A stretch of DNA of 64,000 nt, from NCBI GenBank assembly GCA_002480485.1, contig DLCF01000027.1, positions 9,936-73,935 on the forward strand, read 5' to 3'. Under the pieces are notes generated by a model, which did not search any database, was not told where the DNA came from, and saw only the letters and a program-made list of their open reading frames with translations. The DNA is from Planctomycetaceae bacterium UBA7805 (lineage in GTDB: Bacteria > Planctomycetota > Planctomycetia > Pirellulales > UBA7805). The position numbers were made by a program, and so were the translations under genes. Shown here piece after piece: positions 23,246-37,550 of this stretch; the stretch's first letter is position 1, and each line of letters opens with the position of its first letter.

Positions 23246-23378
23246 GTCTACCTTCTTAAACACTTTCGCAACGGTTCCAGGCAGCGATATCGGCAACCAG
23301 TCGCCTCCGTTATCATAATCCAATCCGAATCGACGTACCATCGCTTCGCCACTGACACGGCAACCTCGCGTGACTTTA

Positions 23379-24242
23379 TCATGTGGGATGCTCGGGCCGT
23401 TTGACGGATAACCAGCGGCAGATCACCCCTCGGAGAAAACTGGCAAGGGTATCGGCGGCACAGAGTGACGCCTGTTGCTCGCGATACCAGTCGCGCGCGG
23501 TTCCCGGACGACGTAGCGTTCCGCCGATCAATGCCCCCAGTCTTCCAGATACAGAGGGCTGCTCACCCGATTGCCGAATCTCAATGGGGGTCTGATCGTC
23601 CAATCGCTGACGAACGACACGGATTACCAGGCACGGTATACCCGACACCGCACACGTCGTAGCAATACCCATCGAAGTCGTGTCTGCAACATCCGCTTGG
23701 TATCTGTCTGCCAGTGCTATTCGCGAATCTTTATCTTCCGGAATCTGACGGCATGTATGCACGGTCCCGACTGTGAAGGCGTCAGGTTGCGATGTAGCCG
23801 ATCGCACGTCGATCTTTATTCGCTGTCCGTTGTCATCGATCACTTGCGAGGCCACAAGCAACGCGTCCTGTTGCAGTACGGCCCGAAGCGCGACAGAAAA
23901 TCCTGCAGCGATAACCCAATTTGGCGTGTGTGCCTGAACCAAAGCCTCTGTTGCCCTCTTTGCAGCTATCGCATCACCTGCCACTTGAGCGATTAATACT
24001 CTACGACCCTCAAGGTTACCCCGAAACAGCCGAAATTCCTGAGTGTGGATACGCACAACGTCGGTCAAGCAGTCTAACATGGAGCCGGTTTGGGCTTTCT
24101 CGTCGAGCACGATTGCCACATCGACTGCATTGCGTTGCTCTGTCGATTGAGAAGAAACCGTCGCAGCATCCTTTGCACGCGAGGAAAATTGCGATTTCGC
24201 TTGCTGTAGCAAAACGTGCTGAATCCACTGTTTCCAAACCAT
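23379..24242 (-). CDS. Pfs/MTAN/HpnG-like (PNP_UDP_1 fold) protein with substituted catalytic positions
   Basis: Hand alignment to E. coli MTA/SAH nucleosidase is colinear: [11 protein letters not shown].. / IGIIGAMEEEV.., [23 protein letters not shown] / [35 protein letters not shown] / DVIINTGSAGGL, and [16 protein letters not shown]...[10 protein letters not shown] / QAIAVEMEATAIAHVC...VRAISDVADQ. The start is taken at ATG 24242 (MVWKQW); the track start is 24314. Confidence 0.55.
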   Translation of the reverse strand: [287 protein letters not shown]

Positions 24243-24347
24243 GATCCGGACCTTAGTTGACGCGTCAAAACCTACTTCCGGTACGCGGAAACCCACCATG
24301 CGATTAACGTGCAAGAGCAGGTGCGTCGAAAGCGGCCAAAGTAGATC

Positions 24348-26207
24348 TCAATCAACCACCGAAAGCAAATTCGCTCCACGGGCCGCAACTTGACCGCACC
24401 TGGTTCCATTATCATCGACTGAAACCCAGCGGCATAGGGCTCGCAGTACCGCACAACGGTGCGTCAGCGGAACGGAGATCGATGCCGGAACCTCATCATC
24501 GGCAATCGATACGCCAGCCTCCATCAAAAAGTTGATACCCTCCGAAACTGACGGGTGATCTCGAAACCCACAATCGATTAAACAAGTCAAAGATAGCGCC
24601 GTGTCGTAAAGTGAATAAGGCGCAACGTCACTTTGAGCCTCGCATGAATGAACAGCCCAAGCGCCACCTGGATACTGATTCGCAAGCAGCCAGCTCACCC
24701 CTTGCACAATCAAAGGATCCTGTGGATAGATTCCCATACTTCGGACGGCTGCAAGCACATGTGCTGTGACAGCTACCTGCTGAGCAACGCTGTTTGAAAT
24801 CCAGGATCCATCGGTCATTTGTCTGCGGCGAAGAAAACGAATCGCGTGGGCGACTGACTGGTGCCCCAAATCCAGTCCAGAGTATGACAATGCTTCGAGG
24901 ACTCGAGCGGTTACCAACGGACAGTGATCCCAACTCCCGTCACGGCTTTGCGCGGCCAGTAATATTTCCTGTCGAGCTGCAATGGTGCGGATCAACCATT
25001 CTGGCCAGGGATACCCGGCGGGAGCATCGAGTGCGTCCGGATCTGCAATCAAATGCATTTCGGGAGGTAGCGCATGATCATCACCGTCGGTTTCGCACAG
25101 CAGACATGCGGCCCTCAACACCGCCGCCTGCTCTGCGATGGACAACTCACCAAACGAGGCGATGGCCAATGGCTTTGACGCCTTTTTGATCGCAGGTGCG
25201 GATATTGATAATCCCGAAAATAACAGTGCCTCCAGGCAGGTGGCAGCCACCTCGAAATCTGCCGGCAACAACGCATCAATGCTTTCAGTCTTTAATCGCT
25301 TTAGCAATTGCTGCAGTTCGGTGCTGTGGCTGGATGATCCACTGGGCCCTTCCTTAATCATTGCCCGGTAAAAATGCTCTCGAAAACTTTGACGGCCGGT
25401 CGATCCCGCGGAAGATTTAGCATCAGAGGTTTGAAACGGGTTGCATTGTTTTATTTTTTTCCACAAACCATGAGTGAATAACCGCATAGCGTGGTGCAAT
25501 GTTCGGGACTTTGGTACCTCCAACGGCAACCAGGCCACGCATGTTTCCAAGGTAGCAAGTTGCCGATGTACTTTGCGTTGCATTAGCTCGGTCCAGAGAC
25601 CCTGTTCGGCGGACGAGAAATGCTTCGATTCGGTGACACTATCGGCTTCAAAGGGAAGTAGTCCATACAAGGCCAGATAGCCCCGTGCCAGTTGATTGAT
25701 TTTTTCGGATCTATTTGTCCCCAAATCAAACCGCCATGCCGGGATCATTGCTTCATCCGTGGGCGATATTCCGAACCGTCTCAATGCGAAATCGATCAGA
25801 AGCGTACTGCTCAATGTGTCTTTATCAACAGGCCCTGAGGTCAATCCTTCGCTGCAATCCTGTGCATCAATTAAGCGATCAACGCACTCTGAGAAAACTG
25901 GTTCTAACGATGGCTCCTCGTGCAATCCTAGCCAGTGACTACACAACATGAACTCGGCGATCGATTGCGGTGTTGTACCTCCGGTGCATACAAAAGATCC
26001 GGTTTCACTTTGCCGATCGACAATCGCTTGACGAAGTTGAAGAATCGTGCGACGCAGAGGCCCGGAGAGCTCATGGCAGGATGCAACCCTCAGCGATCCC
26101 TGTTGCCGCTCCAGGTGGTCAAAGTGAACCACCCTTGGTGTAAACGGCTCTTCGTGAATCGCTAAACGAAAGATCTTGAGAGGCTCAATCATGACTTGAC
26201 CATCCAT
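24348..26207 (-). CDS. Highly divergent squalene-hopene-cyclase-like / prenyltransferase-squalene oxidase repeat protein
   Basis: 619 aa. Three C-terminal QW-like motifs are present (ILLAAQSRDGSW, AIRFLRRRQMTDGSW, VSWLLANQYPGGAW). They are interleaved with alpha-alpha-barrel helices resembling SHC (VTARVLEAL, AVTAHVLAAV, LYDTALSLTCLI). An N-terminal SHC-like helix pair is present (QAIVDRQSETGSF...AEFML). A DGDD tetrad lies at aa 374-377 (nt 25077-25088). Confidence 0.55.
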   Translation of the reverse strand: MDGQVMIEPLKIFRLAIHEEPFTPRVVHFDHLERQQGSLRVASCHELSGPLRRTILQLRQAIVDRQSETGSFVCTGGTTPQSIAEFMLCSHWLGLHEEPSLEPVFSECVDRLIDAQDCSEGLTSGPVDKDTLSSTLLIDFALRRFGISPTDEAMIPAWRFDLGTNRSEKINQLARGYLALYGLLPFEADSVTESKHFSSAEQGLWTELMQRKVHRQLATLETCVAWLPLEVPKSRTLHHAMRLFTHGLWKKIKQCNPFQTSDAKSSAGSTGRQSFREHFYRAMIKEGPSGSSSHSTELQQLLKRLKTESIDALLPADFEVAATCLEALLFSGLSISAPAIKKASKPLAIASFGELSIAEQAAVLRAACLLCETDGDDHALPPEMHLIADPDALDAPAGYPWPEWLIRTIAARQEILLAAQSRDGSWDHCPLVTARVLEALSYSGLDLGHQSVAHAIRFLRRRQMTDGSWISNSVAQQVAVTAHVLAAVRSMGIYPQDPLIVQGVSWLLANQYPGGAWAVHSCEAQSDVAPYSLYDTALSLTCLIDCGFRDHPSVSEGINFLMEAGVSIADDEVPASISVPLTHRCAVLRALCRWVSVDDNGTRCGQVAARGANLLSVVD

Positions 26208-26328: not shown

Positions 26329-26412
26329 AATCACCCATGGACTGCTATCGATCCGATAACCCCCTTTCGCTAGACTGTCGCCTCCAAACTGTAATTGACT
26401 CGCGCGATTTTT

Positions 26413-28131
26413 ATGATGCTAGCTTGCCATCGCTTCCTGCTGTTCGCATTGATGCTGCTGTGTGGCACTGCTTGGTCGCCGCCGTCGCGCGCCGATGTCC
26501 TGGTCATTTGCCCGGATGCATTCACCGATGCCATTGGTCGGTGGATCGCGTATCGCACCGGTCAGGGACATCGGATCGTACTGATGGCAAACGATCGCTC
26601 GGCTTTCGTGCTGCAGAAGAAAATTCGCGACTATGCGACAAAGCGACCTGTAAACGCCGTGGTGCTGATCGGCGATGCTAGATCGGGCGATGTGAGTCAA
26701 AATTTAGGCGGTGCATGCCTGCAGCATTGTGTGCCCACACACTATCGTAAAGCCACCGTGATTACGCCTTATGCCGGGGATCGACAAATTGCCACTGATT
26801 ACCCGTTTGGCGATGTTGACGGAGATGATGTCGCAGAAATTCCAGTGGGTCGCCTGCCCGTGGATCGCCCAGAAGATTTGATGCGAATGGTTCAGCGGAT
26901 AATCGATTATGAGTCAAATAGCGACTTCTCACCCTGGAGAAGGCAAATCAACCTGGTCGCCGGTGTCGGGGAATTTGGGCCGATCATTGATTCGATAATC
27001 GAGGGCACGACACGTGCATTCCTGATTTCAAAAATTCCGCCAGCCTATCGAACAACGATGACGCAAGCCAATTGGAAAAGCCCGTATTGTCCACCGCCGG
27101 AGCAATTTAGAGACACCGTGCTAAACCGCTTGAATGAAGGTTGTCTGTTCTGGATTTATCTTGGCCACGGACAGATCGACTCTCTGGACAAGGTCCGCGT
27201 GCCGGGCGGACAATTTCCGATTTTGCGGAACACCGATGCTGACCGCATCGCTGCGAATCGAGGTGCCCCGATCGCGTTACTTTGTTGCTGCTACGCCGCA
27301 GCTTTTGATGCTCCTAACGACTGCCTAGCCGAAGCGATGTTGGAGAGTAAAGCAGGGCCGATAGCGGTCATCGGGGGGTCACGTACAACAATGCCGTATG
27401 GAATGACGGTGCTGGGCGAGGCGCTGATCAATCAACATTTCCAGAAACAGCAGACCACCTTGGGCGAGATTTTGAACAACGCAAAGAAACACATGGTCAG
27501 TGACGATGCAGGCGGTTCAAATCGAATCGCGCTGGATCGCCTAGCGGGGTTGCTCGGGAATACAAAGCAGCAACGGACAGCAGAGCGCAGAGAGCATGCC
27601 CAACTCTTCAATCTGTTGGGAGATCCCCTTTTAAAAATTGACGCATCCCGATCAGTCGTGGTGCGAGCACCGCGTCTGGTCGATCAAGGCGCAACGGTAA
27701 CCGTAGAAATCGACGCGCCCATGAAAGGATTGGCAACCATAGAAATCGTCACCCGACGCGGTACTTTCACCACGCCACTGGCGAACCGCACGCATTATGA
27801 CTCTTCCCCGGATGGCCGGAAGGAATATCTGCAATCCTATAAAAGGGCGAACGATCCACGTCTGGATCAGCAGCAGTGGCCTGTCGTGAAGGGTCTGCAG
27901 ACGTTCACAATGCAGTTGCCACCTGATTTTTCCGGACCCTGCCATGCGAGAGTGTATATTTACGGTATGCAACAGCATGCTATGGGATCTACTGATATTT
28001 ACGTGCAGCAGCAAAAGTCGCCGGAGCAATCTGTGAAGCGGACCGATCATGCAAACCCCTCTGCGGACTACTCGCTGCGTGCCGTGATCAACGTTGCAGA
28101 AAATCAAAACTCACGGCTGAGATCACGATAA
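26413..28131 (+). CDS. Secreted peptidase C25 (gingipain)-like cysteine peptidase family protein
   Basis: Signal peptide MMLACHRFLLFALMLLCGTAWSPPSRA. The C25 N-terminal pattern is present (VLVICPDAF...W..YR...G....L...........IRDY......AVVLIGDA...VP...........D.PFGDVDGDDVAEIPVGRLPV...EDL..MV.RIIDYE). The catalytic-type His lies in WIYLGHGQ and the Cys cluster in ALLCCCYAAAF. The track start at 26395 is TTG; ATG 26413 is used. Confidence 0.65.
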   Translation: MMLACHRFLLFALMLLCGTAWSPPSRADVLVICPDAFTDAIGRWIAYRTGQGHRIVLMANDRSAFVLQKKIRDYATKRPVNAVVLIGDARSGDVSQNLGGACLQHCVPTHYRKATVITPYAGDRQIATDYPFGDVDGDDVAEIPVGRLPVDRPEDLMRMVQRIIDYESNSDFSPWRRQINLVAGVGEFGPIIDSIIEGTTRAFLISKIPPAYRTTMTQANWKSPYCPPPEQFRDTVLNRLNEGCLFWIYLGHGQIDSLDKVRVPGGQFPILRNTDADRIAANRGAPIALLCCCYAAAFDAPNDCLAEAMLESKAGPIAVIGGSRTTMPYGMTVLGEALINQHFQKQQTTLGEILNNAKKHMVSDDAGGSNRIALDRLAGLLGNTKQQRTAERREHAQLFNLLGDPLLKIDASRSVVVRAPRLVDQGATVTVEIDAPMKGLATIEIVTRRGTFTTPLANRTHYDSSPDGRKEYLQSYKRANDPRLDQQQWPVVKGLQTFTMQLPPDFSGPCHARVYIYGMQQHAMGSTDIYVQQQKSPEQSVKRTDHANPSADYSLRAVINVAENQNSRLRSR

Positions 28132-28136
28132 GACCA

Positions 28137-30893
28137 TTACCGACTGCACTGCTCATCAATCTCAACCCCGGATGCAGCGATGGGGGGGGTGGAAGAGTGC
28201 GATCTCTCCTCACGCATGCCGGCTTCAGAATTGGCAATGTGCTGCCCGGAGATAGAGCGTGTGATGACCTCTTCAAACAGATTTTCCACCTTGTGGCCAA
28301 GCCGACAGGTTCGGGTGAAGGAGGAAATGAAATGTGCGGCCTTGCTCGCATCAATCGTTAGTGGTGGTTGGATTCGCAGCACCAGAGGATTAGAACGAGT
28401 AACTTGCGTATAAATATGATAATGCTCTAGCAGGATCTGCATTTGAAATACGGTGGGAAAGCTGGCGATCATCGCATCCATGCCCCGCATCATATACTGG
28501 AGCATCCCAGTCGAGTCGGTACGCTTCAAATGCGTTGTCACAGATTCTGCCAAAGGCGAGAGTTCTACACCAATCATCAATCCCTGTCCGCGGATGTCCT
28601 GAAAATAGTCCGGTAACTCCTGTCGAATTTCATTCAAGCCTTCCAGAATTTGAAATCCGCGTTGGGCAGCATTTTCCGCCAATCTTTCCTCAACGAGTGT
28701 TTCAATCGTCGCCAGGCCCGCAATACAAGCAAGACTTCCACCGCCAAAAGTGCTAGTGTGCAAGGCAAATCGCTCAACTGTCCCGTAGGCTTTCATCCAC
28801 AGATCACGGCGTGCCAACATGGCACCAATCGGCACCAATCCTCCACTGAGGCTCTTTGCAACACAAAGAATATCCGGTTCAATCGCCGCCTGTTCGCTCG
28901 CGAACATCGTCCCCGTGCGACCCATTCCCGTTTGGACTTCATCGGCAATCAAAAGCGTTCCGGCCTGCCGGCATATGCGCTCTGCTTCAGCCAGATAACC
29001 CGCCGGGGGAAGAATCATTCCTCCCTCTCCTTGGATCGGTTCCACGATGAATGCTGCCATATTGCGTGAGGCGAGAGTGCGTTCCAAAACCTCCAGATTG
29101 CCATACGGAATCGGGTGACAATCGGGCAGTAGCGGTGCAAATGGTTGTTGATAACCACGATTTCCAGTAACCGAGAGCGCACCAAGTGACTTGCCATGAT
29201 AAGAACCATGGCAATAGATAATGCCGGTTCGGCCCGTTGTGGCACGTGCCAGCTTTAGCGCAGACTCCACTGCCTCGGTCCCGCTGTTACAGAAAAATAC
29301 CATTTCCAAACCTGCCGGGGCAATCGATACCAAACGCTCGGACAAAGACGCCGCGTGAGGATTGATCGCCGCTGGGGAAAATCCGGGAACACTACTTTCT
29401 AGGGCCGCGCTGATCGCCTCAACAACTCTAGGGTGATTGTGACCGACATTAAGTGAGCCGAAACCCGAAACAAAATCGAGATAGTGATTTTCATCGGCAT
29501 CGGTGATTACCGTATCCTGGCCTCGTACGAAGGTCTTGTTGAGTCCACCCTGCTCGGCAAGATTGACCAATACCGGATTTACATATCGCTGAAAAAGGGT
29601 TCGCGCTCGGCGATTTTTAATTTCTTCTTCTTGCTGAATCCGCTGCTTGGATTTCTGATCGGTTGGCCGCTGCGTATCAGTTTGCGCTTGGCCGTAGGCA
29701 GGATGACCGTTGGTCGCGGATCCAGCGATCCTTTCTCCGGTAGTCGCCGAGCAGTGTTGGCCGGTAGCGAAATTTTTCTCCGCCAGACGACGACCAACTA
29801 CTTTATTCATGCTTGCCCATAGTGAATCGGGAACCGGTCGACCGTAGGAAGAGAGTTGCGAAAACGAAAATCCATGCCGAGTGGCGATGGATCCGATTTC
29901 TCCAATTCGCTCGATACTTAAATCACGCCCCAAAGAAAAACTTTCCGCGCGATCTTCCAGAGCCAAATTGATGGTTTCAGCCAGGCACCCCGGTACCAGA
30001 CCGAAGTGGAAACCGAGTAGCATCGATTTGCCTAGAAAACCTCTAGGTACGTCCACCAGGCCTCCAGAAACGACGAGAACATTGCTTCGACGTCGTGTCG
30101 ATCGGGTTACATCCGCAGGAACTCCCACGTCAATCACCACGCTGCCTGCCTGCAGCATCTCTTGCACGATACAACTGCCGCTCGAGGTGGCGGAAAGAAT
30201 CAATCGGGATTTCGCCAGGGCGGTCGGGATTTCAAAAACGAGCTCACTCTGAAGTTCAGCTGCAATTCGTGTTGCTCTCGGGGAAGGGCGACGGGCCACC
30301 AAGATCATTTCTCCTACCTTGGTCCGTAACATCCGGGCGATTGCCGTAGCGATGCTGCCGGGTAGACCGATCACGGTAACCGTCTCTTTGGTGAGGTCTA
30401 TCGACAGTTCACTGCAAGCATGTTGCAAATTTTTTAGCGCAGCATAAACCGTCAGGCTGTTTCCTGTGGTCACGGGAATCGGACTATTTTCTGCGATGTA
30501 CTGGCCGTGTCCGCCGACGACACTTGTGAGTGAACCGAGACCAACAATACCTGCACCCCAGTCCGCAGCCATATCTACAGCCGCTTGTGTCTGTTCGATG
30601 GCTGTTCCCGGGTCTTCTAAGATCTGCTTTGGACTGCATGGAATTTCGTACACGCGTCCTTCAGTCTCGCAACCGGTTTTGGTTTGCAGCCCCGAGAACT
30701 GATCAAGAACGATGGGGCGGTCTTTTGCGCGACCTCCGAAGGCAACCCCTTCCGCCATGCGACCTTGGACGAAATCGCATATCTCTAGCAGATTGCCATT
30801 TTCCCAATGCGACAGCAACTGCCCGCCATCATCCATCTGCCACAGAGCTTTACTTTCCTCTGAGAGAGGATGCACTACAAAGGCGAATTTCAT
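28137..30893 (-). CDS. Fusion protein: N-terminal acyl-ACP reductase (AAR)-like NAD(P)-dependent thioester reductase domain plus C-terminal class-III (omega/ornithine/putrescine-type) PLP aminotransferase
   Basis: aa 1-345 align colinearly with Synechococcus AAR as I recall it: [11 protein letters not shown] / [24 protein letters not shown] / [25 protein letters not shown] / [38 protein letters not shown] / [35 protein letters not shown] / [20 protein letters not shown] / MFACFAEAMLL, and [10 protein letters not shown] / IGEASVRHGF. The AAR catalytic Cys equivalent is C303 (nt 29985-29987). aa 434-875 form the class-III aminotransferase: [64 protein letters not shown], and the PLP Lys in [12 protein letters not shown] (K680, nt 28854-28856). 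An 88-aa low-complexity linker joins the two halves. Confidence 0.8.
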   Translation of the reverse strand: [918 protein letters not shown]

Positions 30894-31226
30894 CGTTGGA
30901 TTGGCCGAGTCGGGTGAAACGTGCTTGTTCGATCTTCAACTATCGCGGGAAAATGCCACGATCCATGTCTCGCATCCGAGCACGCATCCCCACGCGTCTC
31001 ACCAATCCTTCGCTTATTTGCTTCTTGCAAACAGCCCAGGCCTGGTAAAGAAACAGTTACCGGAGCTGAGCACCTAGCATACCCCCCCGCATAAGGCTCT
31101 TCAACCAATTTTAGCTGGAAATATCGAGTTTCAATGCGTGATTCATTTCATCCTGTCCAGGGAATTGCCATAATCAGCGCAGTCTACCAATGCTGAAACA
31201 AATGATCGTTTCTGCGTTTCGCTGCC

Positions 31227-31383
31227 CTACTCTGTGTTTCTTAAGCTCGAAAGAGTAGAAATATCGGTCTGCCCAATCGATGGATTTCGGTGCTATGATG
31301 ATGACTTCGAGGGCGAGCGATCAAAAAGAGTCCGAACACGTGATCGCGTTAAGAGTTTACTCTTACGTTATCCATAAACTCTT
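31227..31383. promoter_or_regulatory. Array of AAGAGT/ACTCTT hexamers and two 7-bp inverted repeats upstream of the MMPL transporter gene
   Basis: AAGAGT occurs at 31251, 31326 and 31351. ACTCTT occurs at 31359 and 31378. One inverted repeat is CTACTCT (31227-31233) with AGAGTAG (31252-31258). A tight palindrome is TAAGAGT-tt-ACTCTTA (31350-31365). The expected count of one hexamer (both strands) in about 135 bp is under 0.1. Confidence 0.4.
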
Positions 31384-31445
31384 CCTAGCTGAAACACTTC
31401 TCCGTCACTGTTGCCCCTGCGTCCCAAATCGCTGGAATATTTTGC

Positions 31446-34052
31446 ATGTCGGAATTAAACCGATCAAGTTTTTACGATCGATTTTACCTTTGGATCTTTA
31501 TTGCATCCCTAATATCGATTTATCCGATCACGCTGAGCGTCATCAAATCGGAAGAAACCAACAATAACAATATCAAGCAGTGGCTTCCGAAGGACAATTT
31601 TGATGAAACGAAAATATACGCTGCATTCAGGGCACATTTCGGCACCGATGAATATGCCATCGTCAGTTGGACAGGATGCACGCTAACCGATCCGCGACTC
31701 TCCGAGTTCGCGTCATTTGCCCGCAATTATCAGAATGCGTCTGGTGATAAGCTGTTTGCAAAAGTCACTACCGGTCCCGAACTATTAGAAAAGTTGCAAG
31801 CGAAGCCTTTCGATTTAAGCGAAAGGCTCGCTCGTCAGCGACTGGAATCAATCCTGATCGGTAAAGACGGCGAATCGAGTGCCGCGGTGATTGAATTAAC
31901 CGAGGCAGGAGATAACGATCGACGAGAGGCCATTGCGTCCCTTAGAAGCATACTGATCCAAGATTTAAAAATTCCGGCCGCTGAAATTCATATGGCCGGA
32001 GATGCGGTAACTAACGCTGCGGTGGATGTTGAGAGTCAGAGGGCCACCGATTCGCTTGTTGGCTACTCGATGCTGATTGCCCTCAGTTGTGCTGTCACAA
32101 GTTTCTTCTTCGCCCACGGTCGTCGTTCCAAGCACTGGATACGCGGTCTGACGTACAGCTTCACGCTGGCCATGCTGATTTTCTTTGTTTCTGTTTACAG
32201 CGCTATGCTGGCGCAATCGCTGGTGCCGATTTTTGGCGGACGTGTGAATCTCGTACTGGTTGTGATGCCCGTCTTAATTTACGTTTTAAGTCTGTCAGCA
32301 GGCGTTCACCTGATCAACTATTACCAGGATACGGTGCGTGAAAAGGGTGTTGCTCATGCCCCTGCAACGGCCATCCGACTCGGCTGGATGCCCTGCACGC
32401 TGGCGGCTGGAACGACGGCCATAGGGCTTGGGTCCCTCTCGGTAAGCAATATCATTCCGGTCAAGGATTTTGGAAAATTCTCCGCGATTGGAATTATCGC
32501 GAGTCTGGGCGTACTGTTTTTACTGCTGCCGGCGCTACTTGTTCTAATTCAAAGATTTTCAAAGAAAGCGAATGAGGGCCTCTCTGCGCAATCGCAAACC
32601 GAGCTCCAGGGAATCTTCGACCAAGTAGTCGAATGGTTGGCTGCAAAGGTTATTGCGCACCGATGGCCAGTGCTTTGCGTCTGTATCGGGCTGCTCATTT
32701 TCTTCGGTTGCGGGTCACTTTATATCAATACTTCAGTCAAGCCAGCCCGTTTTTTTGACCCAAAGCATCGGTTAATCACCGATTACGAGTGGCTGGCCAG
32801 CCCGGAACGTTTCGGCAATCAAATCCCTCTTGAGATTGTGGTCGCATTCAACCGAAAAAAGTCTACCTTGACGACGCTGGGGCAGATGCGGCTGATCTCG
32901 GCGATTGAAAAAGACCTAAAACAGAACCAATCGAACCTGATCAGCCACTCCATTTCGGCCGCCACTTTTGCACCAGAGCTAGATGAGGGCCATTACACGC
33001 AGTTCGTGATGAATAAACGTTTGGCAGCTAATCGCGCTGATTACCATAAAGTTCATTACTACAGCTATGAAAACGCGGCACATGAGGTTGCACCGGTCCC
33101 GCACGCAACTGATAAAGCGAAAGGGGGGACAGAAGACGAACCTCAAGCAGGAAAGGACCTTTGGCGAATCAGTGCCCGTATTCGCCCCGGAGAGAAAGAC
33201 TATGACGAGGTGATTCTCCAAATCGAAGAGCACGTAAACGGATTTCTGGCGAAGCGAAGTGCCGCAAGTCAGCAAAAACAGAAAAAAGCAAAACAAACTT
33301 TTGAAAAATTCAAGGAACTGGTTAAGCAAAAAATCGCTGAAGAAAGCGCTGCCTGTACCGAATCGGAAAACAAGCAAGGATGCCTTGAACAGATCAAACA
33401 AAAATATGATTTGATTGTAACGAATCGGACCAAAAAATTTGACAACTTTTTGCGGGCGGCGGCAGATGATGCAGTTGGAGTCGATGTCCAATACACGGGA
33501 ATGGTACCCCTATTTCACATCGCACAGCGTGAATTACTGAATGGGTTGTTTAAGAGCTTTGTGATCGCTTTTTTTCTAATCGCCGTAATGATGATAATTT
33601 GGTTCCGCAATTTTGCATCGGGACTGGTATCGATGCTGCCGAATGTTTTTCCGGCGGCGGTTATCTTTGGCTGGATGGGGTGGACCGATCGAATTGTTGA
33701 CATTGGATCGATGATGACTGCAAGCGTCGCGATGGGAATTGCGGTGGACGATACGGTCCACTTTCTTACTTGGTTCCGCAGGGGAATTGCGGCAAAGATG
33801 ACTCGCGCTGAAGCGGTGCTGTATTGTTATCGACGCTGCGCATTAGCGATGACGCAAACCACTTTGATCGCCGGACTTGGTCTGGTCATCTTCTCGCTGA
33901 GTTCTTTTCAGCCGGTATCCCAATTTGGCTTGTTGATGTTTTTACTGTTGCTTGCAGCGCTGGTGGGCGACCTTGTTTTCCTGCCCTCTCTTTTGGCTAG
34001 TCCCGCAGGCAAACTGTTTCAAGTTAAAAGTGATCCATCTGCGCCCCGGTGA
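31446..34052 (+). CDS. MMPL / HpnN-like RND-superfamily lipid exporter (12 TM, two periplasmic loops)
   Basis: 868 aa. The topology is 1+5 / 1+5 TM with large loops after TM1 and TM7. The TM4 region is VMPVLIYVLSLSAGVHLINYY and the TM10 region is MTASVAMGIAVDDTVHFLTWF, the charged RND proton-relay type. The second loop carries a Lys/Gln/Glu-rich predicted coiled-coil insert (nt 33247-33420). Confidence 0.8.
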   Translation: MSELNRSSFYDRFYLWIFIASLISIYPITLSVIKSEETNNNNIKQWLPKDNFDETKIYAAFRAHFGTDEYAIVSWTGCTLTDPRLSEFASFARNYQNASGDKLFAKVTTGPELLEKLQAKPFDLSERLARQRLESILIGKDGESSAAVIELTEAGDNDRREAIASLRSILIQDLKIPAAEIHMAGDAVTNAAVDVESQRATDSLVGYSMLIALSCAVTSFFFAHGRRSKHWIRGLTYSFTLAMLIFFVSVYSAMLAQSLVPIFGGRVNLVLVVMPVLIYVLSLSAGVHLINYYQDTVREKGVAHAPATAIRLGWMPCTLAAGTTAIGLGSLSVSNIIPVKDFGKFSAIGIIASLGVLFLLLPALLVLIQRFSKKANEGLSAQSQTELQGIFDQVVEWLAAKVIAHRWPVLCVCIGLLIFFGCGSLYINTSVKPARFFDPKHRLITDYEWLASPERFGNQIPLEIVVAFNRKKSTLTTLGQMRLISAIEKDLKQNQSNLISHSISAATFAPELDEGHYTQFVMNKRLAANRADYHKVHYYSYENAAHEVAPVPHATDKAKGGTEDEPQAGKDLWRISARIRPGEKDYDEVILQIEEHVNGFLAKRSAASQQKQKKAKQTFEKFKELVKQKIAEESAACTESENKQGCLEQIKQKYDLIVTNRTKKFDNFLRAAADDAVGVDVQYTGMVPLFHIAQRELLNGLFKSFVIAFFLIAVMMIIWFRNFASGLVSMLPNVFPAAVIFGWMGWTDRIVDIGSMMTASVAMGIAVDDTVHFLTWFRRGIAAKMTRAEAVLYCYRRCALAMTQTTLIAGLGLVIFSLSSFQPVSQFGLLMFLLLLAALVGDLVFLPSLLASPAGKLFQVKSDPSAPR

Positions 34053-34120: not shown

Positions 34121-35257
34121 TTAGAAATAAGATTGCAACGTCCCGCGTCTGCGAACGTCAAGCGTGGAGCAGTGAAAGGCACCGCCGTATACGTAGTGGT
34201 TGGTGTACGGACAAGGAATAGGCTTGAAACCCCATTCCCGAAATTTCTTGATCAGGGGCTCCTGACTTGCCTCGCAGATGACCCGTTTTTCATCGAGCAT
34301 TAACACATTCATACTCAGCCAAGCACTGCTAAGGTCGATCATTTGCACCATCGTGCTGACCGGTGCAGGTGCCGGAAGAAGCTCCCAACTTTTGAGTACC
34401 TCCGGGGCATCACTAGGATCAAAGAAATCGGGGCTGTAGAGGGCACGTCCTGGGCAGAGCGGCACGAAGGTCGTGTCAATATGCATCGGCTGACGAGATT
34501 TTGTTTTGATCTCATGAATTGAAAAGTCACCGCCAAGATGGCGACGGAGCCAATCGATGCCAAAACGATTGGTAACGTTGCTACGCGTTACGAACAGGTC
34601 GCGACCACAGCGGGCAAAATCGGCTGCATCAAAACAACACTCGGTTTCATTGATCGCAAATTGAAGTTGTTCTCCTTTTTCCGGAAGTTGCCATTTTTCA
34701 TTATAAAGCGAGTCGGCCAGACGAGGGCGAGGGGCAGCTGTCCACCGCGCACCCGCCTTAAAATATTCGTGAAGCAGACTGCGATAAGCGTTCATCTCAA
34801 AATAGCGACTACGCCATGCCATAGGCGTTTCTATAATCTCATCTCCAATGACCAACAGTCCGTCACGAGGATTAGCAATATTGTACGCTGACTCGACCTC
34901 CCAATCCGGAGTTCGAAAACTTTCCGTTTGAGCGATAGGATCGGGTCGCCTGACTTTTACGCCCTCTGCCTCGAGAATAGCAACGAATTCGGCTTGATCT
35001 CGCTGTGCTGCCTGAACCATGGCATCCGGTGCCGGTTTGCCCGAAAGCAATTTAAGCAGTTCCCAAGATTCTTGGGGCGTAGCTGCCTGCAGCGTGACAT
35101 GCCAAGGAGGAACCGCCCCGCCATCCACTCGGCCGACAATTACCTCCTCTAGCGGATCCCACTCGTTGAACGAGCAAACAACCGATTTTTCTAAGTTACT
35201 TCGTTGCGTTTCGGCAGCTTCCACGTCGGTTCCTGATTTGCTGCCAGCTATCGCCAT
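34121..35257 (-). CDS. Arginine:X amidinotransferase (AGAT / StrB1 family; glycine amidinotransferase-like)
   Basis: Near-colinear with vertebrate AGAT as I recall it: FNEWDPLEEVIVGR, VKVRRPDPI, EIIETPMAWRSRYFE, CFDAADFARCGRDLF, PMHIDTTF, WLSMNVLMLDEKRV, and the C-terminal GGAFHCSTLDVRRRGTLQSYF. The catalytic Cys, His and Asp positions are all present. Confidence 0.9.
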   Translation of the reverse strand: MAIAGSKSGTDVEAAETQRSNLEKSVVCSFNEWDPLEEVIVGRVDGGAVPPWHVTLQAATPQESWELLKLLSGKPAPDAMVQAAQRDQAEFVAILEAEGVKVRRPDPIAQTESFRTPDWEVESAYNIANPRDGLLVIGDEIIETPMAWRSRYFEMNAYRSLLHEYFKAGARWTAAPRPRLADSLYNEKWQLPEKGEQLQFAINETECCFDAADFARCGRDLFVTRSNVTNRFGIDWLRRHLGGDFSIHEIKTKSRQPMHIDTTFVPLCPGRALYSPDFFDPSDAPEVLKSWELLPAPAPVSTMVQMIDLSSAWLSMNVLMLDEKRVICEASQEPLIKKFREWGFKPIPCPYTNHYVYGGAFHCSTLDVRRRGTLQSYF

Positions 35258-35462: not shown

Positions 35463-37550
35463 TCAGCGATCTGAGTAAACCTTGGTGCTTTCTTCCTTGG
35501 TCACCGGCGTCTTTAAATCATCGCTCTGGATTTGAACCTGCACGCGCTGATCCCCCGGGTGTACACCCTGCGCACGCACCGTAAAGGTGGTGTCTGCTTT
35601 GGGTGCCAACCGCGGAAGCGGTTGAAATACCACCTGATTACCCTGTATTGAACCTTGAGTTGGTCCCTCTGTGGAAAGCGGCTTCAAGTCATCCGGCAAA
35701 AGTGCGGCGACGATAATGTTGCGCGCCACTTTGGTGCCTTGATTGAGCACCCGAATTTCATAGGCTGTATCGCGTCCGACTTCAACCGGATCCTCAAGAT
35801 CCACGACTTCGAAGAAGAGCGCTGAGAGGCCCTCCACCCGAACGGTCTCCTCACTCGAGTCACTCAACTCGCCGCGAGCCGTGCTCTCGACCCGCAACGT
35901 ATGGTCACCAGCCTCGGTCGGCAAGGTCACTAGTTGAACCTGACCCTGCTCACCCTCGGGAAGCTCCTGCAAGCTCCAGTAAACCGCATGCGTCGACGCA
36001 TCGTAATGACCGGCGTTATTGGCAGACACAAATTGCATCGCGCGAGGCAAACGGGATACTAACTCGATATCTTGCGCAGCCGCTGTTCCTGGATTTGCGA
36101 CCTTGACGGTGTATGTCGCCTGTCGCTCCAGATAACGGCGCCGAGGTCCGGAGATGGCAACGGACAATTGAGGTGCGATGATTTCAAACTCAAAATTCGC
36201 CTCCGCCGCTAGGCTTCCCTCGCCACGAGCCGACAGCACGTTTTTGACTACACCCGCACGGGCAGCAGTCATTACAAGGTTTATTTTCCGACTTTCTTTG
36301 GGTGCCAGATCACCAACAGCAAATTCCAAATCGGCGCCGGCAGGATGTCGCAACTCTCCCGGCAAGGTTTCAAACAGCACCACATCGCGGGCAATCCCAC
36401 TACCTAGATTGGCAACCGTGATATCGACCTGGATTTGATCGCCGATCATCACTTGCCCCACACTGCTGGCATCAATTTTTAGGAGGGGTCGCGTTGCCAG
36501 CGTGCGGGCAGATGCCCGTGTAGCAAATGTGACCGAAGCGACACTTCCGACTTCGCCCTCCGCTTCGGGCATGAGACGGACTTCAACAAATTTTTCCTGT
36601 CCAGGCTCAAAGTGCCCGAGATCCCAGACCACGCCACCCTGAACCGACTGTGCTGCCGGCTTCGTACTGAGCAGGCGTGTGCCATAGGGAATTTCGTCCC
36701 TCACCCGTACATCGTAGGCGGTGACATTGCCGCGATTGACAACCTTGATATCAAACGTCGTCGGTTTCCCGACTTGAATTTCCTGAGGAACTACCTTTTC
36801 AACGACCATCTGCGGCCCTTGGGGGCCCTCCTGGTGGCGACCACCCGGCCGCCCGATCGCGTCTGCCGATGCAGTTGCACCCGAGATTGCGGCGCTCACA
36901 GCGGACCCGGACGCGGACATATTGCCCCAACTTTTCGGCGACGCAGTGGCAACTGGGGGGGGTGGCGGTGTGGATGCGGTGGCACCCGTTGGCGGCGCTG
37001 TGTATCGATTTTGGGGATCGTTTACCGGGGAGACCGATGTCGGCGAGGTCGGATAACGCGGCGCCACAGTCGTTGATTTCAAAGGCTGTGCATTTTTCGC
37101 CTCTACTGGCAACGCACCCGGAGCAACGGTTGCCGGGGGGATATTCTGGTAACGGTCGCCGACCGTCGGCTGGGCATAGCGATTGGATGGCTCATTATCC
37201 TGGTTGTGGGCGGCAGTTGGGGGCGGCGCCAGACCAAAAGGATCGCGCTTCGCAAGATTCGCTGCCGGAGGAATGGAATCCTGAGTCGGTACTTCTGATG
37301 CTCTTGCGGCCTGATCAGCAGCAGCGGCAAAAGCGGCGCCTTGGTCAGTCACTACCGGTTGGGTCGGTTGGGAAAAGTTGTCGGTCTTTGTTAGAGGACG
37401 AACCTCTGCACCGGGGGGTGGCACTTCATCCTTTGCGGCGACCGAACGAATCACTGGGTCCTCCTGTGACCGCTGCACCTCGGCAATTGCGAACCAGCCG
37501 CATGCCATGCTACCAACCAAGATCGACAATCGAATTATCCAACGTTTCAT
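35463..37550 (-). CDS. Envelope protein with N-terminal signal/anchor, about 200-aa Pro/Ala-rich spacer and about four DUF11 (conserved repeat domain) beta-sandwich repeats
   Basis: N-terminus MKRWIIRLSILVGSMACGWFAIA. DUF11 cores are FDIKVVNRGNVTAYDVRVRDEIPYG, VDITVANLGSGIARDVVLFETLPGEL, YTVKVANPGTAAAQDIELVSRLPRAM and YEIRVLNQGTKVARNIIVAALLPDDL. It is a paralogue of the 47028-49613 gene. Confidence 0.75.
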   Translation of the reverse strand: MKRWIIRLSILVGSMACGWFAIAEVQRSQEDPVIRSVAAKDEVPPPGAEVRPLTKTDNFSQPTQPVVTDQGAAFAAAADQAARASEVPTQDSIPPAANLAKRDPFGLAPPPTAAHNQDNEPSNRYAQPTVGDRYQNIPPATVAPGALPVEAKNAQPLKSTTVAPRYPTSPTSVSPVNDPQNRYTAPPTGATASTPPPPPVATASPKSWGNMSASGSAVSAAISGATASADAIGRPGGRHQEGPQGPQMVVEKVVPQEIQVGKPTTFDIKVVNRGNVTAYDVRVRDEIPYGTRLLSTKPAAQSVQGGVVWDLGHFEPGQEKFVEVRLMPEAEGEVGSVASVTFATRASARTLATRPLLKIDASSVGQVMIGDQIQVDITVANLGSGIARDVVLFETLPGELRHPAGADLEFAVGDLAPKESRKINLVMTAARAGVVKNVLSARGEGSLAAEANFEFEIIAPQLSVAISGPRRRYLERQATYTVKVANPGTAAAQDIELVSRLPRAMQFVSANNAGHYDASTHAVYWSLQELPEGEQGQVQLVTLPTEAGDHTLRVESTARGELSDSSEETVRVEGLSALFFEVVDLEDPVEVGRDTAYEIRVLNQGTKVARNIIVAALLPDDLKPLSTEGPTQGSIQGNQVVFQPLPRLAPKADTTFTVRAQGVHPGDQRVQVQIQSDDLKTPVTKEESTKVYSDR

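What the first reader, a model, noticed from the sequence alone, without database searches (positions are those of the whole stretch)
28137..30893. Natural fusion of an acyl-ACP-reductase (AAR)-like thioester reductase to a class-III aminotransferase: a one-polypeptide acyl-thioester-to-amine machine?
Seen in sequence: one uninterrupted 918-codon ORF.

- Residues 1-345 align block by block with the cyanobacterial alkane-pathway acyl-ACP reductase. This includes the position of its catalytic cysteine, here C303 in [12 protein letters not shown] (nt 29985-29987), and the Rossmann segment [18 protein letters not shown].
- Residues 434-875 are a complete class-III PLP aminotransferase with the Schiff-base lysine (K680, [12 protein letters not shown]). 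Its N-terminal YVNP... segment is reminiscent of putrescine/omega-amine transaminases, which act on aldehydes.
- An 88-aa Gln/Thr/Lys-rich linker joins the two halves.

Established knowledge: AAR reduces fatty acyl-ACP/CoA to the aldehyde. Omega-transaminases interconvert aldehydes and primary amines.

Inference: the fusion would channel a reactive aldehyde straight into transamination, giving a long-chain (or other) primary amine. In cyanobacteria AAR is partnered with aldehyde-deformylating oxygenase. I know of no characterised AAR-transaminase fusion.
Basis: partly seen in the sequence, partly recalled or inferred. Interest (0 to 1): 0.8.

Follow-up and report, generated by a model that had tools for sequence, protein, structure and literature searches.

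The report
PigE-type thioester reductase–transaminase of Planctomycetes
This gene really does encode one protein that joins an acyl-thioester reductase to an amine-forming transaminase, but the design is already known from the pigment enzyme PigE; what is new is that it belongs to an unstudied branch found across Planctomycetes, probably making an exported amine-containing lipid.

Summary
Window 28137-30893 (minus strand) is an intact 918-codon ORF. Its N-terminal half has the acyl-ACP reductase (AAR) fold, and C303 aligns with the AAR catalytic C294. Its C-terminal half is a class-III aminotransferase with the Schiff-base lysine K680. C303 and K680 are invariant in 118 full-length homologues, so the fusion is not an artefact.

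The novelty claim does not hold. This architecture is that of PigE, shown in 2021 to be an AAR-like thioester reductase plus transaminase. TamH, with the reverse domain order, was shown in 2022 to turn acyl-ACP into a fatty amine.

The protein matches the PigE model over its full length but below cutoff (780 versus 850 bits). It is about 38% identical to true PigE and falls in a separate clade whose named members are all Planctomycetota. No pigD, pigB or pigC lies in the 64 kb.

In other lineages the fusion recurrently neighbours amine-acylating enzymes (FemAB-like GNAT, PapA-like, GNAT, GH3), lipid exporters (MMPL, MacB) and acyl-activating enzymes. In sister clades it neighbours ACP and ketosynthase genes. 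In this window only the divergently transcribed MMPL gene is present.

Most likely function: acyl-thioester to aldehyde to primary amine, feeding an exported amine lipid. Verdict: new member of a known kind, moderate interest.

The parts
28137..30893 (-). Whole gene: 918-aa PigE-type bifunctional thioester reductase / class-III aminotransferase (stop codon 28137-28139)
   Evidence: NCBIfam NF053554 PigE scores 779.9 bits (cutoff 850), aligned 47-864 against 31-831 of 837. The best PDB sequence match is 4ppm (PigE), E=3e-152.
29829..30893 (-). N-terminal AAR-like thioester reductase domain (residues 1-355)
   Evidence: AAR 6jzq E=3e-19 and PigE N-half E=8e-49. TIGR04058 scores 91.9 bits. AF2 model with Foldseek hit to AAR, TM 0.73-0.79.
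30324..30377 (-). Nucleotide-binding Rossmann segment [18 protein letters not shown] (residues 173-190), followed by ILVARR
   Evidence: G176, P178, G179, S180 and A186 are invariant in 118 homologues. The segment aligns with AAR [16 protein letters not shown]. NADPH preference is inferred from the invariant R201 after strand beta-2 and was not tested.
29985..29987 (-). Codon of Cys303, the predicted acyl-enzyme nucleophile
   Evidence: Aligns with AAR C294 and with the PigE cysteine that the literature numbers Cys296 (PMC8341465). Invariant in 118 of 118 homologues. Codon verified.
29595..29828 (-). Inter-domain linker (residues 356-433): two helices flanking a disordered, unconserved stretch rich in Q, T, R and A
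   Evidence: Conservation is 0.12-0.29 for residues 361-420. pLDDT is below 50 for residues 380-410. Composition.
28269..29594 (-). Class-III (fold-type I) PLP aminotransferase domain (residues 434-875), PigE/putrescine-aminotransferase-like
   Evidence: Pfam PF00202 E=1.3e-96. Foldseek hits 4ppm with TM (target) 0.86-0.88 and YgjG 4uox with 0.84-0.86.
28854..28856 (-). Codon of Lys680, the PLP Schiff-base lysine (motif AKSLSGG)
   Evidence: Invariant in 118 of 118 homologues. Codon verified.
30894..31445 (.). 552-bp divergent intergenic region shared with the MMPL gene (presumed promoters of both genes)
   Evidence: It has no Rfam match and no sigma-70-like consensus match (these scans do not cover Planctomycete promoter types).
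31446..34052 (+). MMPL/HAE3-type RND transporter, divergently transcribed; probable exporter of the pathway product
   Evidence: Pfam MMPL and TIGR00921. Full-length homologues at 32-41% identity lie next to the fusion in L023 and L024. More distant MMPLs lie next to it in L108 and L111, and one lies 9 kb away in L025.

Best explanation
The gene encodes a PigE-type bifunctional enzyme from an uncharacterised clade whose named members are all Planctomycetota. The organism is a marine Planctomycetaceae MAG.

Proposed mechanism, by analogy with AAR, PigE and TamH:
1. An acyl thioester, most likely acyl-ACP and possibly acyl-CoA, transfers its acyl group to Cys303 of the N-terminal AAR-fold domain.
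2. NAD(P)H, probably NADPH, reduces the acyl-enzyme to a free aldehyde.
3. The aldehyde passes to the C-terminal class-III transaminase, with PLP on Lys680. An amino donor (ornithine or arginine for PigE, glutamate for TamH) converts it to a primary amine.

The enzyme is not part of a prodigiosin or pyrrole pathway. Gene neighbourhoods of relatives suggest that the amine is a lipid building block. It would then be modified on nitrogen, by acylation in most lineages, and exported to the envelope by the adjacent MMPL transporter.

Shown here: domain identity, fold, conserved catalytic residues, family-wide fusion, clade separation from PigE, and neighbourhood statistics. Inferred: substrate identity and chain length, cofactor, amino donor, channelling, and the fate of the product.
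For: Architecture and catalytic residues; folds.

Precedent for the chemistry: PigE (PMC8341465) and TamH (PMC9594044).

Family: 367 protein clusters with E<=1e-20. The best 120 are nearly all full length, at 47-88% identity. Every name that sources give them is either a Planctomycetota organism or a generic enzyme name; 17 of 19 genome loci are also Planctomycetota.

Separate clade: the window protein is 37.7% identical to a true PigE representative (P0154, 1392 bits on NF053554) and sits in a different NJ clade.

No pigD, pigB or pigC-like genes occur in 64 kb of otherwise housekeeping and envelope genes.

Neighbourhoods, counted over 13 Planctomycete lineages grouped at 70% identity:
- An amide-forming enzyme lies within 5 kb in 10 lineages. 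These are FemAB_like/Acetyltransf_6 in 7, PapA/WS-DGAT-like in 3, Acetyltransf_9 GNAT in 2 and a GH3 amido synthetase in 1.
- An MMPL or MacB exporter is nearby in 6 lineages.
- An AMP-binding ligase is nearby in 3 lineages.

The MMPLs of W, L023 and L024 are full-length homologues at 32-41% identity.

In two non-Planctomycete-type sister clades the fusion sits in co-directional lipid operons:
- L112: KS, 3HCDH, ECH, ACP, then the fusion 10 bp after the ACP gene, then a deacetylase and a GNAT, with a divergent MacB-LolA-like-DUF1302 set.
- L111: KS, ACP, rSAM, FemAB-like, rSAM, MMPL, KS, fusion, LolA-like, DUF1302.
Against: - In this window only the MMPL partner is present. No ACP, ligase, FemAB-like, PapA-like, GNAT9 or GH3 homologue occurs anywhere in the 64 kb.
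- Partner sets differ between lineages. Three lineages (L109, L027 and the short L008) show none.
- In L024 and L110 the upstream operon is a PaaK-like aryl-CoA ligase with chorismate-binding and GATase genes. That hints at an aromatic rather than a fatty substrate.
- No member of the Planctomycete clade has been studied.
- Even for PigE, reductase activity was seen only in lysate and not with pure protein.
- The neighbourhood sample is small, was not drawn at random, and rests partly on crude ORF calling.
Confidence: 0.62

Rival explanations
1. It is a true PigE orthologue. It reduces and transaminates a 3-acetyl-alkanoyl thioester, which cyclises to a dihydropyrrole, in a prodiginine-like pigment pathway.
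For: The best family hit is the PigE equivalog model, aligned nearly end to end. The best PDB hit is PigE 4ppm. JGI annotates some homologues as '3-acetyloctanal aminotransferase'.
Against: The score of 779.9 is below the curated cutoff of 850, whereas true PigE representatives score 1133-1392. The protein falls in a separate NJ clade at about 38% identity. No PigD (ThDP enzyme), PigB or PigC homologue appears in the window or in any of the 25 or so related loci examined.
Confidence: 0.03
2. It is an unprecedented, previously uncharacterised kind of fusion: the first AAR-transaminase machine.
For: NCBI annotates the protein only as 'hypothetical protein' or 'aminotransferase class III-fold'. 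Pfam sees only Shikimate_DH in the N-half.
Against: PigE has the same order and the same catalytic cysteine (published 2021). TamH has the reverse order and was biochemically shown to make fatty amine (published 2022). NCBIfam already holds a full-length PigE model that aligns across both domains.
Confidence: 0.02
3. The substrate is not a fatty acyl chain. It is an aromatic or other small acid, for example a chorismate-derived aminobenzoate activated by a PaaK-like CoA ligase, giving a benzylamine-type product.
For: In L024 and L110 a PaaK-like ligase, a chorismate-binding enzyme and a GATase lie co-directionally and tightly spaced just upstream of the fusion. L021 also carries a PaaK-like ligase.
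Against: This arrangement was seen in one 70%-identity lineage group, plus a ligase alone in another. The pabA/pabB-like genes may be housekeeping folate genes. All characterised relatives (AAR, PigE, TamH) act on aliphatic acyl chains. The MMPL, MacB, KS and ACP contexts point to lipids. None of these genes is in the window.
Confidence: 0.1
4. Only the transaminase half is catalytic in the proposed sense. The N-domain does something else: regulation, TAD-like amidation chemistry, or aldehyde oxidation in a catabolic amine to aldehyde to acyl-thioester direction.
For: The AAR fold also occurs in the NRPS terminal amidation domain, whose chemistry is unresolved. Pure PigE showed no NAD(P)H consumption. 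The transaminase domain resembles catabolic putrescine aminotransferase.
Against: The catalytic cysteine, the Rossmann motif and many N-domain residues are invariant, and the N-domain is as conserved as the transaminase domain. The domain is far closer to AAR than to TAD (24% versus 16% identity; E about 1e-23 versus 1e-14). The neighbours are biosynthetic or export genes, not catabolic ones.
Confidence: 0.1
5. It is an HpnO-like aminotransferase of a hopanoid or isoprenoid-lipid cluster, aminating a terpenoid side-chain aldehyde, with the MMPL acting as an HpnN-like exporter.
For: In this lineage IspH, an HpnG-like PNP_UDP_1 phosphorylase and an SHC-like protein with a DGDD motif lie 2-8 kb away. 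The MMPL gives weak HpnN hits. The arrangement is conserved in L001 and L026.
Against: The HpnG, SHC and HpnN scores are far below cutoffs (47.6 of 187, 60.9 of 431 and 43.5 of 752). None of these genes accompanies the fusion outside this one lineage. A thioester reductase is not needed for the known HpnO reaction.
Confidence: 0.06

Closest known systems
PigE / HapE (prodigiosin MAP branch; NCBIfam NF053554; PDB 4ppm; Couturier et al. 2021, PMC8341465)
   Same: It has the same two domains in the same order (AAR-like reductase, then class-III transaminase). The catalytic cysteine and the PLP lysine are the same. The alignment runs nearly end to end, and PigE is the best sequence and structure match for both halves.
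   Different: Identity is about 38% and the clade is separate. The score is below the equivalog cutoff. The linker is longer and unconserved. There is no pigD, pigB or pigC context; an MMPL is adjacent instead. The substrate is therefore presumably not 3-acetyloctanoyl thioester.
TamH of tambjamine YP1 biosynthesis (Richardson et al. 2022, PMC9594044)
   Same: It is a natural fusion of an omega-transaminase with an AAR-family thioester reductase. It converts an acyl-ACP to a fatty amine, which is the net reaction proposed here.
   Different: The domain order is reversed (transaminase N-terminal, reductase C-terminal). TamH uses NADH and depends on the ANL-ACP didomain TamA. It lies in a bipyrrole gene cluster of Pseudoalteromonas.
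Cyanobacterial acyl-ACP reductase AAR (TIGR04058; PDB 6jzq/6jzu), partner of aldehyde-deformylating oxygenase
   Same: The fold is the same (TM 0.73-0.79). The catalytic cysteine position and the nucleotide-binding motif are the same, and the ping-pong acyl-enzyme mechanism is presumed.
   Different: Identity is only about 24%, and the score of 91.9 bits compares with a cutoff of 449.7. The domain is fused rather than stand-alone. The downstream partner is a transaminase rather than ADO, and no ADO gene was seen.
GluTR-GSAM complex of tetrapyrrole synthesis
   Same: The logic is the same: a cysteine-dependent NADPH reduction of an activated carboxyl to an aldehyde, handed to a class-III-type PLP enzyme. 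The N-domain gives weak GluTR hits. The analogy was drawn for PigE in PMC8341465.
   Different: These are two separate proteins. The substrate is glutamyl-tRNA. GSAM is an aminomutase. The homology is very distant.
Terminal amidation domain (TAD) of CarI NRPS (PDB 9e4u; bioRxiv 10.1101/2024.10.28.620694)
   Same: It has an AAR-like two-domain fold with an invariant cysteine next to the nicotinamide. It is the second-best structural family for the N-domain.
   Different: Identity is about 16%. TAD binds NAD, lies at an NRPS C-terminus, gives an amide product, and its chemistry is unresolved.

Membership tests
PigE equivalog (NF053554, prodigiosin MAP biosynthesis aminotransferase) | Full-length two-domain architecture aligned to the model | tested here: met
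   Residues 47-864 align to model positions 31-831 of 837.
PigE equivalog (NF053554, prodigiosin MAP biosynthesis aminotransferase) | Score at or above the curated cutoff (850 bits) | tested here: not met
   The score is 779.9 bits. True PigE representatives score 1133-1392 bits.
PigE equivalog (NF053554, prodigiosin MAP biosynthesis aminotransferase) | Catalytic Cys of the reductase domain and PLP Lys of the transaminase domain | tested here: met
   C303 aligns to the PigE cysteine in ...lnGCmAETi.... K680 is invariant.
PigE equivalog (NF053554, prodigiosin MAP biosynthesis aminotransferase) | Location in a pig/hap cluster with pigD, pigB and pigC | tested here: not met
   None of about 41 window genes scanned resembles them, and none occurs in the related loci.
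PigE equivalog (NF053554, prodigiosin MAP biosynthesis aminotransferase) | Phylogenetic placement within the PigE clade | tested here: not met
   In the NJ tree the Planctomycete clade is separate from P0154 and P0156, at 37.7% identity. This is a distance tree without support values.
PigE equivalog (NF053554, prodigiosin MAP biosynthesis aminotransferase) | Activity on 3-acetyloctanoyl thioester / 3-acetyloctanal | not testable with these tools
   Needs enzymology.
Long-chain acyl-ACP reductase AAR (TIGR04058) | AAR fold with the catalytic Cys at the C294 position and a GxxGxxG/A nucleotide site | tested here: met
Long-chain acyl-ACP reductase AAR (TIGR04058) | Score at or above the curated cutoff (449.7 bits) | tested here: not met
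   The N-half alone scores 91.9 bits.
Long-chain acyl-ACP reductase AAR (TIGR04058) | Stand-alone protein of about 340 aa paired with aldehyde-deformylating oxygenase | tested here: not met
   The domain is fused to a transaminase. No ADO-like family appears among the window genes scanned.
Class-III aminotransferase (Pfam PF00202) | Profile match above gathering score, fold-type I structure, Schiff-base lysine | tested here: met
   The score is 324.2 bits against 30.5. TM (target) is 0.86-0.88 to 4ppm. K680 is invariant.
TamH-type transaminase-reductase fusion | omega-Transaminase fused to an AAR-family thioester reductase | tested here: met
   definition from PMC9594044.
TamH-type transaminase-reductase fusion | Domain order TA (N-terminal) then TR (C-terminal), with a cognate ANL-ACP didomain partner | tested here: not met
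   The order here is TR then TA. No AMP-binding or ACP gene lies in the window.
Hopanoid cluster aminotransferase HpnO / exporter HpnN | Neighbouring bona fide shc, hpnG, hpnH and hpnN genes that reach their family cutoffs | tested here: not met
   SHC 60.9 of 431, HpnG 47.6 of 187, HpnN 43.5 of 752 bits. No HpnH was seen.

The most novel reading that the evidence does not exclude
The Planctomycete PigE-like enzyme is the entry step of an undescribed envelope-lipid pathway that is widespread in the phylum. Acyl-ACP is converted to a long-chain primary amine. The nitrogen is then modified by lineage-specific partners (FemAB-like, PapA-like, GNAT or GH3 enzymes), and the product is exported by a dedicated MMPL transporter.

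In this marine lineage no acyltransferase is nearby. The amine-modifying partner could instead be the SxtG/AGAT-type amidinotransferase encoded tail-to-tail with the MMPL gene (34121-35257). That would give an alkyl-guanidine lipid, and the ornithine released from arginine could serve as the transaminase's amino donor.
Probability: 0.3. Interest if true: 0.7.

Novelty: new member of a known kind. Interest (0 to 1): 0.35.

Why it matters
The headline of the finding, a first AAR-transaminase fusion, is not new. PigE and TamH already establish this enzyme logic.

What remains of interest is that a distinct, well-conserved clade of such enzymes occurs across Planctomycetota, outside any pyrrole pathway. 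It is repeatedly linked to amine-acylating enzymes and to lipid exporters. That points to an unidentified class of amine-derived, possibly N-acylated or guanidinylated, envelope lipids in a phylum whose cell-envelope chemistry is still debated.

It also offers additional natural thioester-to-amine biocatalysts, for which TamH and PigE are currently the only studied templates. All of this is inference from sequence and synteny.

Tried and rejected
- Assembly or indel artefact: rejected. The identical protein is on 14 contigs, there are 118 full-length homologues, and both halves are equally conserved.
- N-half as a shikimate or amino-acid dehydrogenase: rejected. The Pfam Shikimate_DH hit covers only the Rossmann part. 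NCBIfam gives shikimate dehydrogenase 14 bits against AAR 92 and PigE 261.
- Prodigiosin cluster membership: rejected (see the membership test).
- Search for FemAB-like, AMP-binding, PapA-like, GNAT9, GH3, ACP, KS and PabB homologues anywhere in the 64-kb window, by tblastn, HMM and phmmer: none found.
- The metagenome scan with the alignment was largely wasted. Its DEVQTG pattern is generic to class-III transaminases, so 70 or more of the 80 loci were stand-alone aminotransferases. Only L027, L052 and L092 were usable full-length fusions (L046, L055 and L058 gave N-terminal tblastn matches but no intact fused ORF), and their contexts were uninformative.
- Rfam scan of the window and promoter/terminator consensus scans around the gene: nothing.
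- Literature searches for Planctomycete PigE-like enzymes, or for links to MMPL: nothing relevant.
- Whether the two active sites face each other: not assessable.
- The N-terminal partner of the roughly 700-aa proteins with a C-terminal AAR-like domain: no PDB sequence relative was found, and this was left open.


Full report
**1. Observation**

The window carries one uninterrupted ORF on the minus strand, 28137..30893. It is 918 codons long with an ATG start. The codon coordinates given for C303 (29985-29987), and those I derived for K680 (28854-28856), translate as stated.

An open frame of 918 codons in DNA of about 52% G+C cannot be chance. The exact protein is on record from 14 contigs. 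They include a marine Planctomycetaceae MAG (MBC20230.1, annotated 'hypothetical protein') and a Tara Oceans scaffold.

**2. Domain identity**

Pfam finds Aminotran_3 at residues 455-800 (E=1.3e-96). In the N-half it finds only a Rossmann-level Shikimate_DH match at 164-273.

NCBIfam is more informative. The whole protein aligns nearly end to end (47-864 against 31-831 of 837) with NF053554, 'prodigiosin MAP biosynthesis aminotransferase PigE'. It scores 779.9 bits against a curated cutoff of 850.

The N-half was also scanned alone:

| Family | Bits | Note |
|---|---|---|
| PigE | 260.7 | |
| AAR, TIGR04058 | 91.9 | E=5e-26; cutoff 449.7 |
| Glutamyl-tRNA reductase | 35 | |
| Shikimate dehydrogenase | 14 | |

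Against PDB sequences the N-half matches the PigE N-region (E=8e-49) and Synechococcus AAR 6jzq/6jzu (E=3e-19). C303 falls exactly on AAR C294.

Structure prediction gives the same picture:
- An AF2 model of residues 1-360 (pLDDT 87.6, pTM 0.88) has AAR as its top Foldseek hit (TM 0.73-0.79, E about 1e-23). The next family is the AAR-like NRPS terminal amidation domain.
- The full-length model (pLDDT 82, pTM 0.72) places the C-half on the PigE transaminase structure 4ppm (TM normalised to target 0.86-0.88, 39% identity). The next hit is putrescine aminotransferase YgjG.

That test is clearly not met.

**3. Conservation and reality of the fusion**

A search of 5.8 billion protein clusters returned 367 clusters at E<=1e-20. 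The best 120 are almost all full-length, 850-990 aa, at 47-88% identity. Every name that sources give them is either a Planctomycetota organism (Pirellulales, Planctomycetaceae, Gemmataceae-related, Thermoguttaceae, Rhodopirellula) or a generic enzyme name. Of the 19 genome loci, 17 are also Planctomycetota.

In an alignment of 118 full-length homologues the following are invariant:
- C303 and K680
- the G176-x-P178-G179-S180 nucleotide motif
- the TTGN and GLGS motifs
- R201 after strand beta-2

The two catalytic halves are equally conserved, at about 0.7-0.8 mean column conservation. Residues 361-420 of the linker are not (0.12-0.29). They are disordered in the model at 380-410 and flanked by helices. 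The fusion is therefore ancient and under selection in both halves.

**4. What is already known**

- Couturier et al. 2021 (PMC8341465) showed that PigE consists of an N-terminal AAR-homologous thioester reductase (26% identity to AAR, conserved Cys296) and a C-terminal class-III transaminase. E. coli lysate expressing PigE converts a 3-acetyloctanoyl thioester to the transaminated, cyclised product. Ornithine or arginine is the likely amino donor. The authors explicitly proposed aldehyde channelling by analogy with GluTR-GSAM.
- Richardson et al. 2022 (PMC9594044) showed that TamH, a transaminase followed by an AAR-family reductase, works with the ANL-ACP protein TamA. Together they convert C12 acid through acyl-ACP and the aldehyde to C12 amine in vitro.

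The statement that no such fusion is known is outdated.

**5. Is it PigE?**

No. Four results argue against it:
- The score is below the equivalog cutoff. Representatives that are true PigE score 1133-1392 bits, and Planctomycete-type representatives score 770-800 bits.
- A neighbour-joining tree puts the Planctomycete proteins in their own clade. It is separate from the PigE pair and from four other intermediate lineages. The window protein is 37.7% identical to a true PigE representative. The tree is distance-based and has no support values.
- About 41 genes across the 64-kb window were scanned. They are housekeeping and envelope genes: dxr, rseP, lpxD, lpxI, ispD, ispH, ftsH, tyrS, prfB, ffh, trmD, rpsP and a PVC-type haem protein, among others. 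None resembles pigD, pigB or pigC.
- None of the related loci carries such genes either.

**6. Genomic context as a clue to function**

Synteny with the window's own neighbours is kept only in close relatives (L001 at 84% identity, L026 at 76%).

I grouped the fused proteins at 70% identity and inspected up to 10 kb on each side. Among 13 Planctomycete lineages a pattern recurs:

| Neighbour class | Lineages | Details |
|---|---|---|
| FemAB_like/Acetyltransf_6 GNAT, 390-430 aa | 7 | Adjacent or within 3.2 kb (adjacent or within 0.4 kb in six lineages); three tandem copies in L025; 30-60% identical between lineages |
| PapA/WS-DGAT-like condensation acyltransferase | 3 | L025, L108 (two copies), L024 |
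| Acetyltransf_9 GNAT | 2 | L021, L110 |
| GH3 acyl-acid amido synthetase | 1 | 85 bp downstream in L009 |
| MMPL transporter | 5 | W, L023, L024, L108 adjacent; 9 kb away in L025 |
| MacB-type ABC exporter | 1 | L021 |
| AMP-binding ligase | 3 | FadD-like or PaaK-like |

The MMPLs of W, L023 and L024 are full-length homologues at 32-41% identity.

Two non-Planctomycete-type sister clades are even more explicit:
- L112 reads KS, 3-hydroxyacyl dehydrogenase, enoyl hydratase and ACP, then the fusion 10 bp after the ACP gene, then a deacetylase and a GNAT. A divergent MacB, LolA-like and DUF1302 set lies alongside.
- L111 reads KS, ACP, B12-rSAM, FemAB-like, rSAM, MMPL, KS, fusion, LolA-like and DUF1302, all on one strand.

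The common denominator has three parts: a carrier-bound acyl chain upstream, an enzyme that acts on a primary amine downstream, and a lipid exporter.

In the present window only the exporter is there. MMPL at 31446-34052 is divergently transcribed across a 552-bp spacer. No other partner family occurs anywhere in the 64 kb.

**7. Best explanation and its limits**

I conclude that this is a PigE-type bifunctional thioester reductase and transaminase. It makes a primary amine from an acyl thioester, most likely acyl-ACP drawn from fatty-acid synthesis, as for AAR. The product is probably a lipid constituent exported by the adjacent MMPL.

- Domain chemistry is supported by homology, fold and invariant residues. 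I put that part at about 0.8.
- The lipid and export pathway is inferred from synteny in relatives only, at about 0.4-0.5.
- Chain length, carrier, cofactor and amino donor are not determined. NADPH is suggested by ILVARR with invariant R201.
- Caveats: partner sets vary, some lineages show none, and the PaaK-like ligase with PabB-like and GATase genes upstream in L024 and L110 hints at a non-fatty substrate in at least one lineage. No Planctomycete member has been studied. Even PigE's reductase activity has been seen only in lysate.

**8. Rivals**

The rivals I considered are:
- a true PigE orthologue
- an unprecedented kind of fusion
- an aromatic substrate
- an N-domain that is non-reductive or runs in the catabolic direction
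- an HpnO-like role in the nearby IspH, HpnG-like and SHC-like gene group

Each is set out in the Rival explanations section with its evidence and a probability. The hopanoid idea fails two ways. Those neighbours score far below their family cutoffs, and they never accompany the fusion outside this lineage.

**9. An observation that may matter**

The 378-aa gene at 34121-35257 lies tail-to-tail with the MMPL gene and has no family hit above threshold (none in Pfam; only weak sub-cutoff NCBIfam matches, 22-24 bits). It is nevertheless a clear amidinotransferase: SxtG 6u1r E=1e-120, human AGAT E=1e-101, and it ends ...GGAFHCSTLDVRRRGTLQSYF.

Like the acyltransferases found beside the fusion elsewhere, it acts on a primary amine. 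It would also release ornithine, which is PigE's preferred amino donor. It is conserved at this position only in L001 and L026, so the link is speculative. It does define the most novel reading that the evidence leaves open, an exported alkyl-guanidine lipid.

**10. Verdict**

| Item | Verdict |
|---|---|
| Observation | Confirmed |
| Novelty | New member of a known kind (PigE-type reductase-transaminase fusion) in an unstudied clade whose named members are all Planctomycetota, with a distinct, probably lipid-related context |
| Interest | Moderate, 0.35 |

Noticed in passing
window 34121-35257 (-): A 378-aa amidinotransferase lies tail-to-tail with the MMPL gene. It is very similar to SxtG (6u1r, E=1e-120), human AGAT (E=1e-101), HsvA and StrB1, yet it has no Pfam hit and only weak NCBIfam matches far below cutoff. 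It is conserved at this position in L001 and L026 only.
   Followed up: partly
window 22307-26207 (-): Three genes lie together: IspH, a PNP_UDP_1 phosphorylase with a weak HpnG match (47.6 of 187 bits), and a 619-aa SHC-like protein with a DGDD motif at 374-377. The SHC-like protein scores only 61 bits on hopene cyclase (cutoff 431). This may be a divergent class-II terpene-cyclase lipid cluster. It is conserved in L001 and L026.
   Followed up: partly
L024 6263-9870 and L110 5815-9278: A PaaK-like aryl-CoA ligase, a chorismate-binding enzyme (PabB/TrpE-like) and a GATase are co-directional and tightly packed directly upstream of the fusion. In L024 an MMPL follows downstream. This suggests a possible aromatic substrate in that lineage.
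   Followed up: no
L111 1142-15323: A sister-clade operon reads KS, ACP, B12-binding radical SAM, FemAB-like, radical SAM, MMPL, KS, fusion, LolA-like (TP_0789-like), DUF1302 and PNP_UDP_1, all on one strand. It appears to be an uncharacterised lipid gene cluster.
   Followed up: partly
L025 1-9545; L108 12804-15907; L024 4443-5864: A PapA/WS-DGAT-like condensation acyltransferase family (255-330 bits between loci) recurs beside the fusion. In L025 it sits with three tandem FemAB-like genes, a NAD_binding_4 thioester-reductase-like gene, a glycosyltransferase and an MMPL.
   Followed up: partly
L009 12722-14410 (+): A GH3-family acyl-acid amido synthetase lies 85 bp downstream of the fusion in a Planctomycetota MAG. 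GH3 enzymes are best known from plants.
   Followed up: no
proteins P0145, P0150, P0164 and about 20 others: Many proteins of about 700 aa carry the AAR-like domain at the C-terminus, after an N-terminal region of about 350 aa that has no PDB sequence relative. This would be a further, unidentified fusion partner of the AAR-like module.
   Followed up: partly
window 18511-22296 (+): A 1261-aa PVC-type haem-binding CxxCH protein (TIGR02604/TIGR02603, DUF7133, HEAT repeats) is a lineage marker consistent with a Planctomycetota origin of the window.
   Followed up: no
window 35463-37550 (-) and 47028-49613 (-): Two large DUF11/CLIPPER-repeat proteins, presumably surface proteins. The first is conserved next to the amidinotransferase in L001 and L026.
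   Followed up: no
window 60427-63975 (-): A 1182-aa ORF with no Pfam match at E<=1e-5.
   Followed up: no
window 26395-28131 (+): A Peptidase_C25 (gingipain/PorU-like) gene converges on the fusion gene, with only 5 bp between the two stop codons. The arrangement is conserved in L001 and L026.
   Followed up: no
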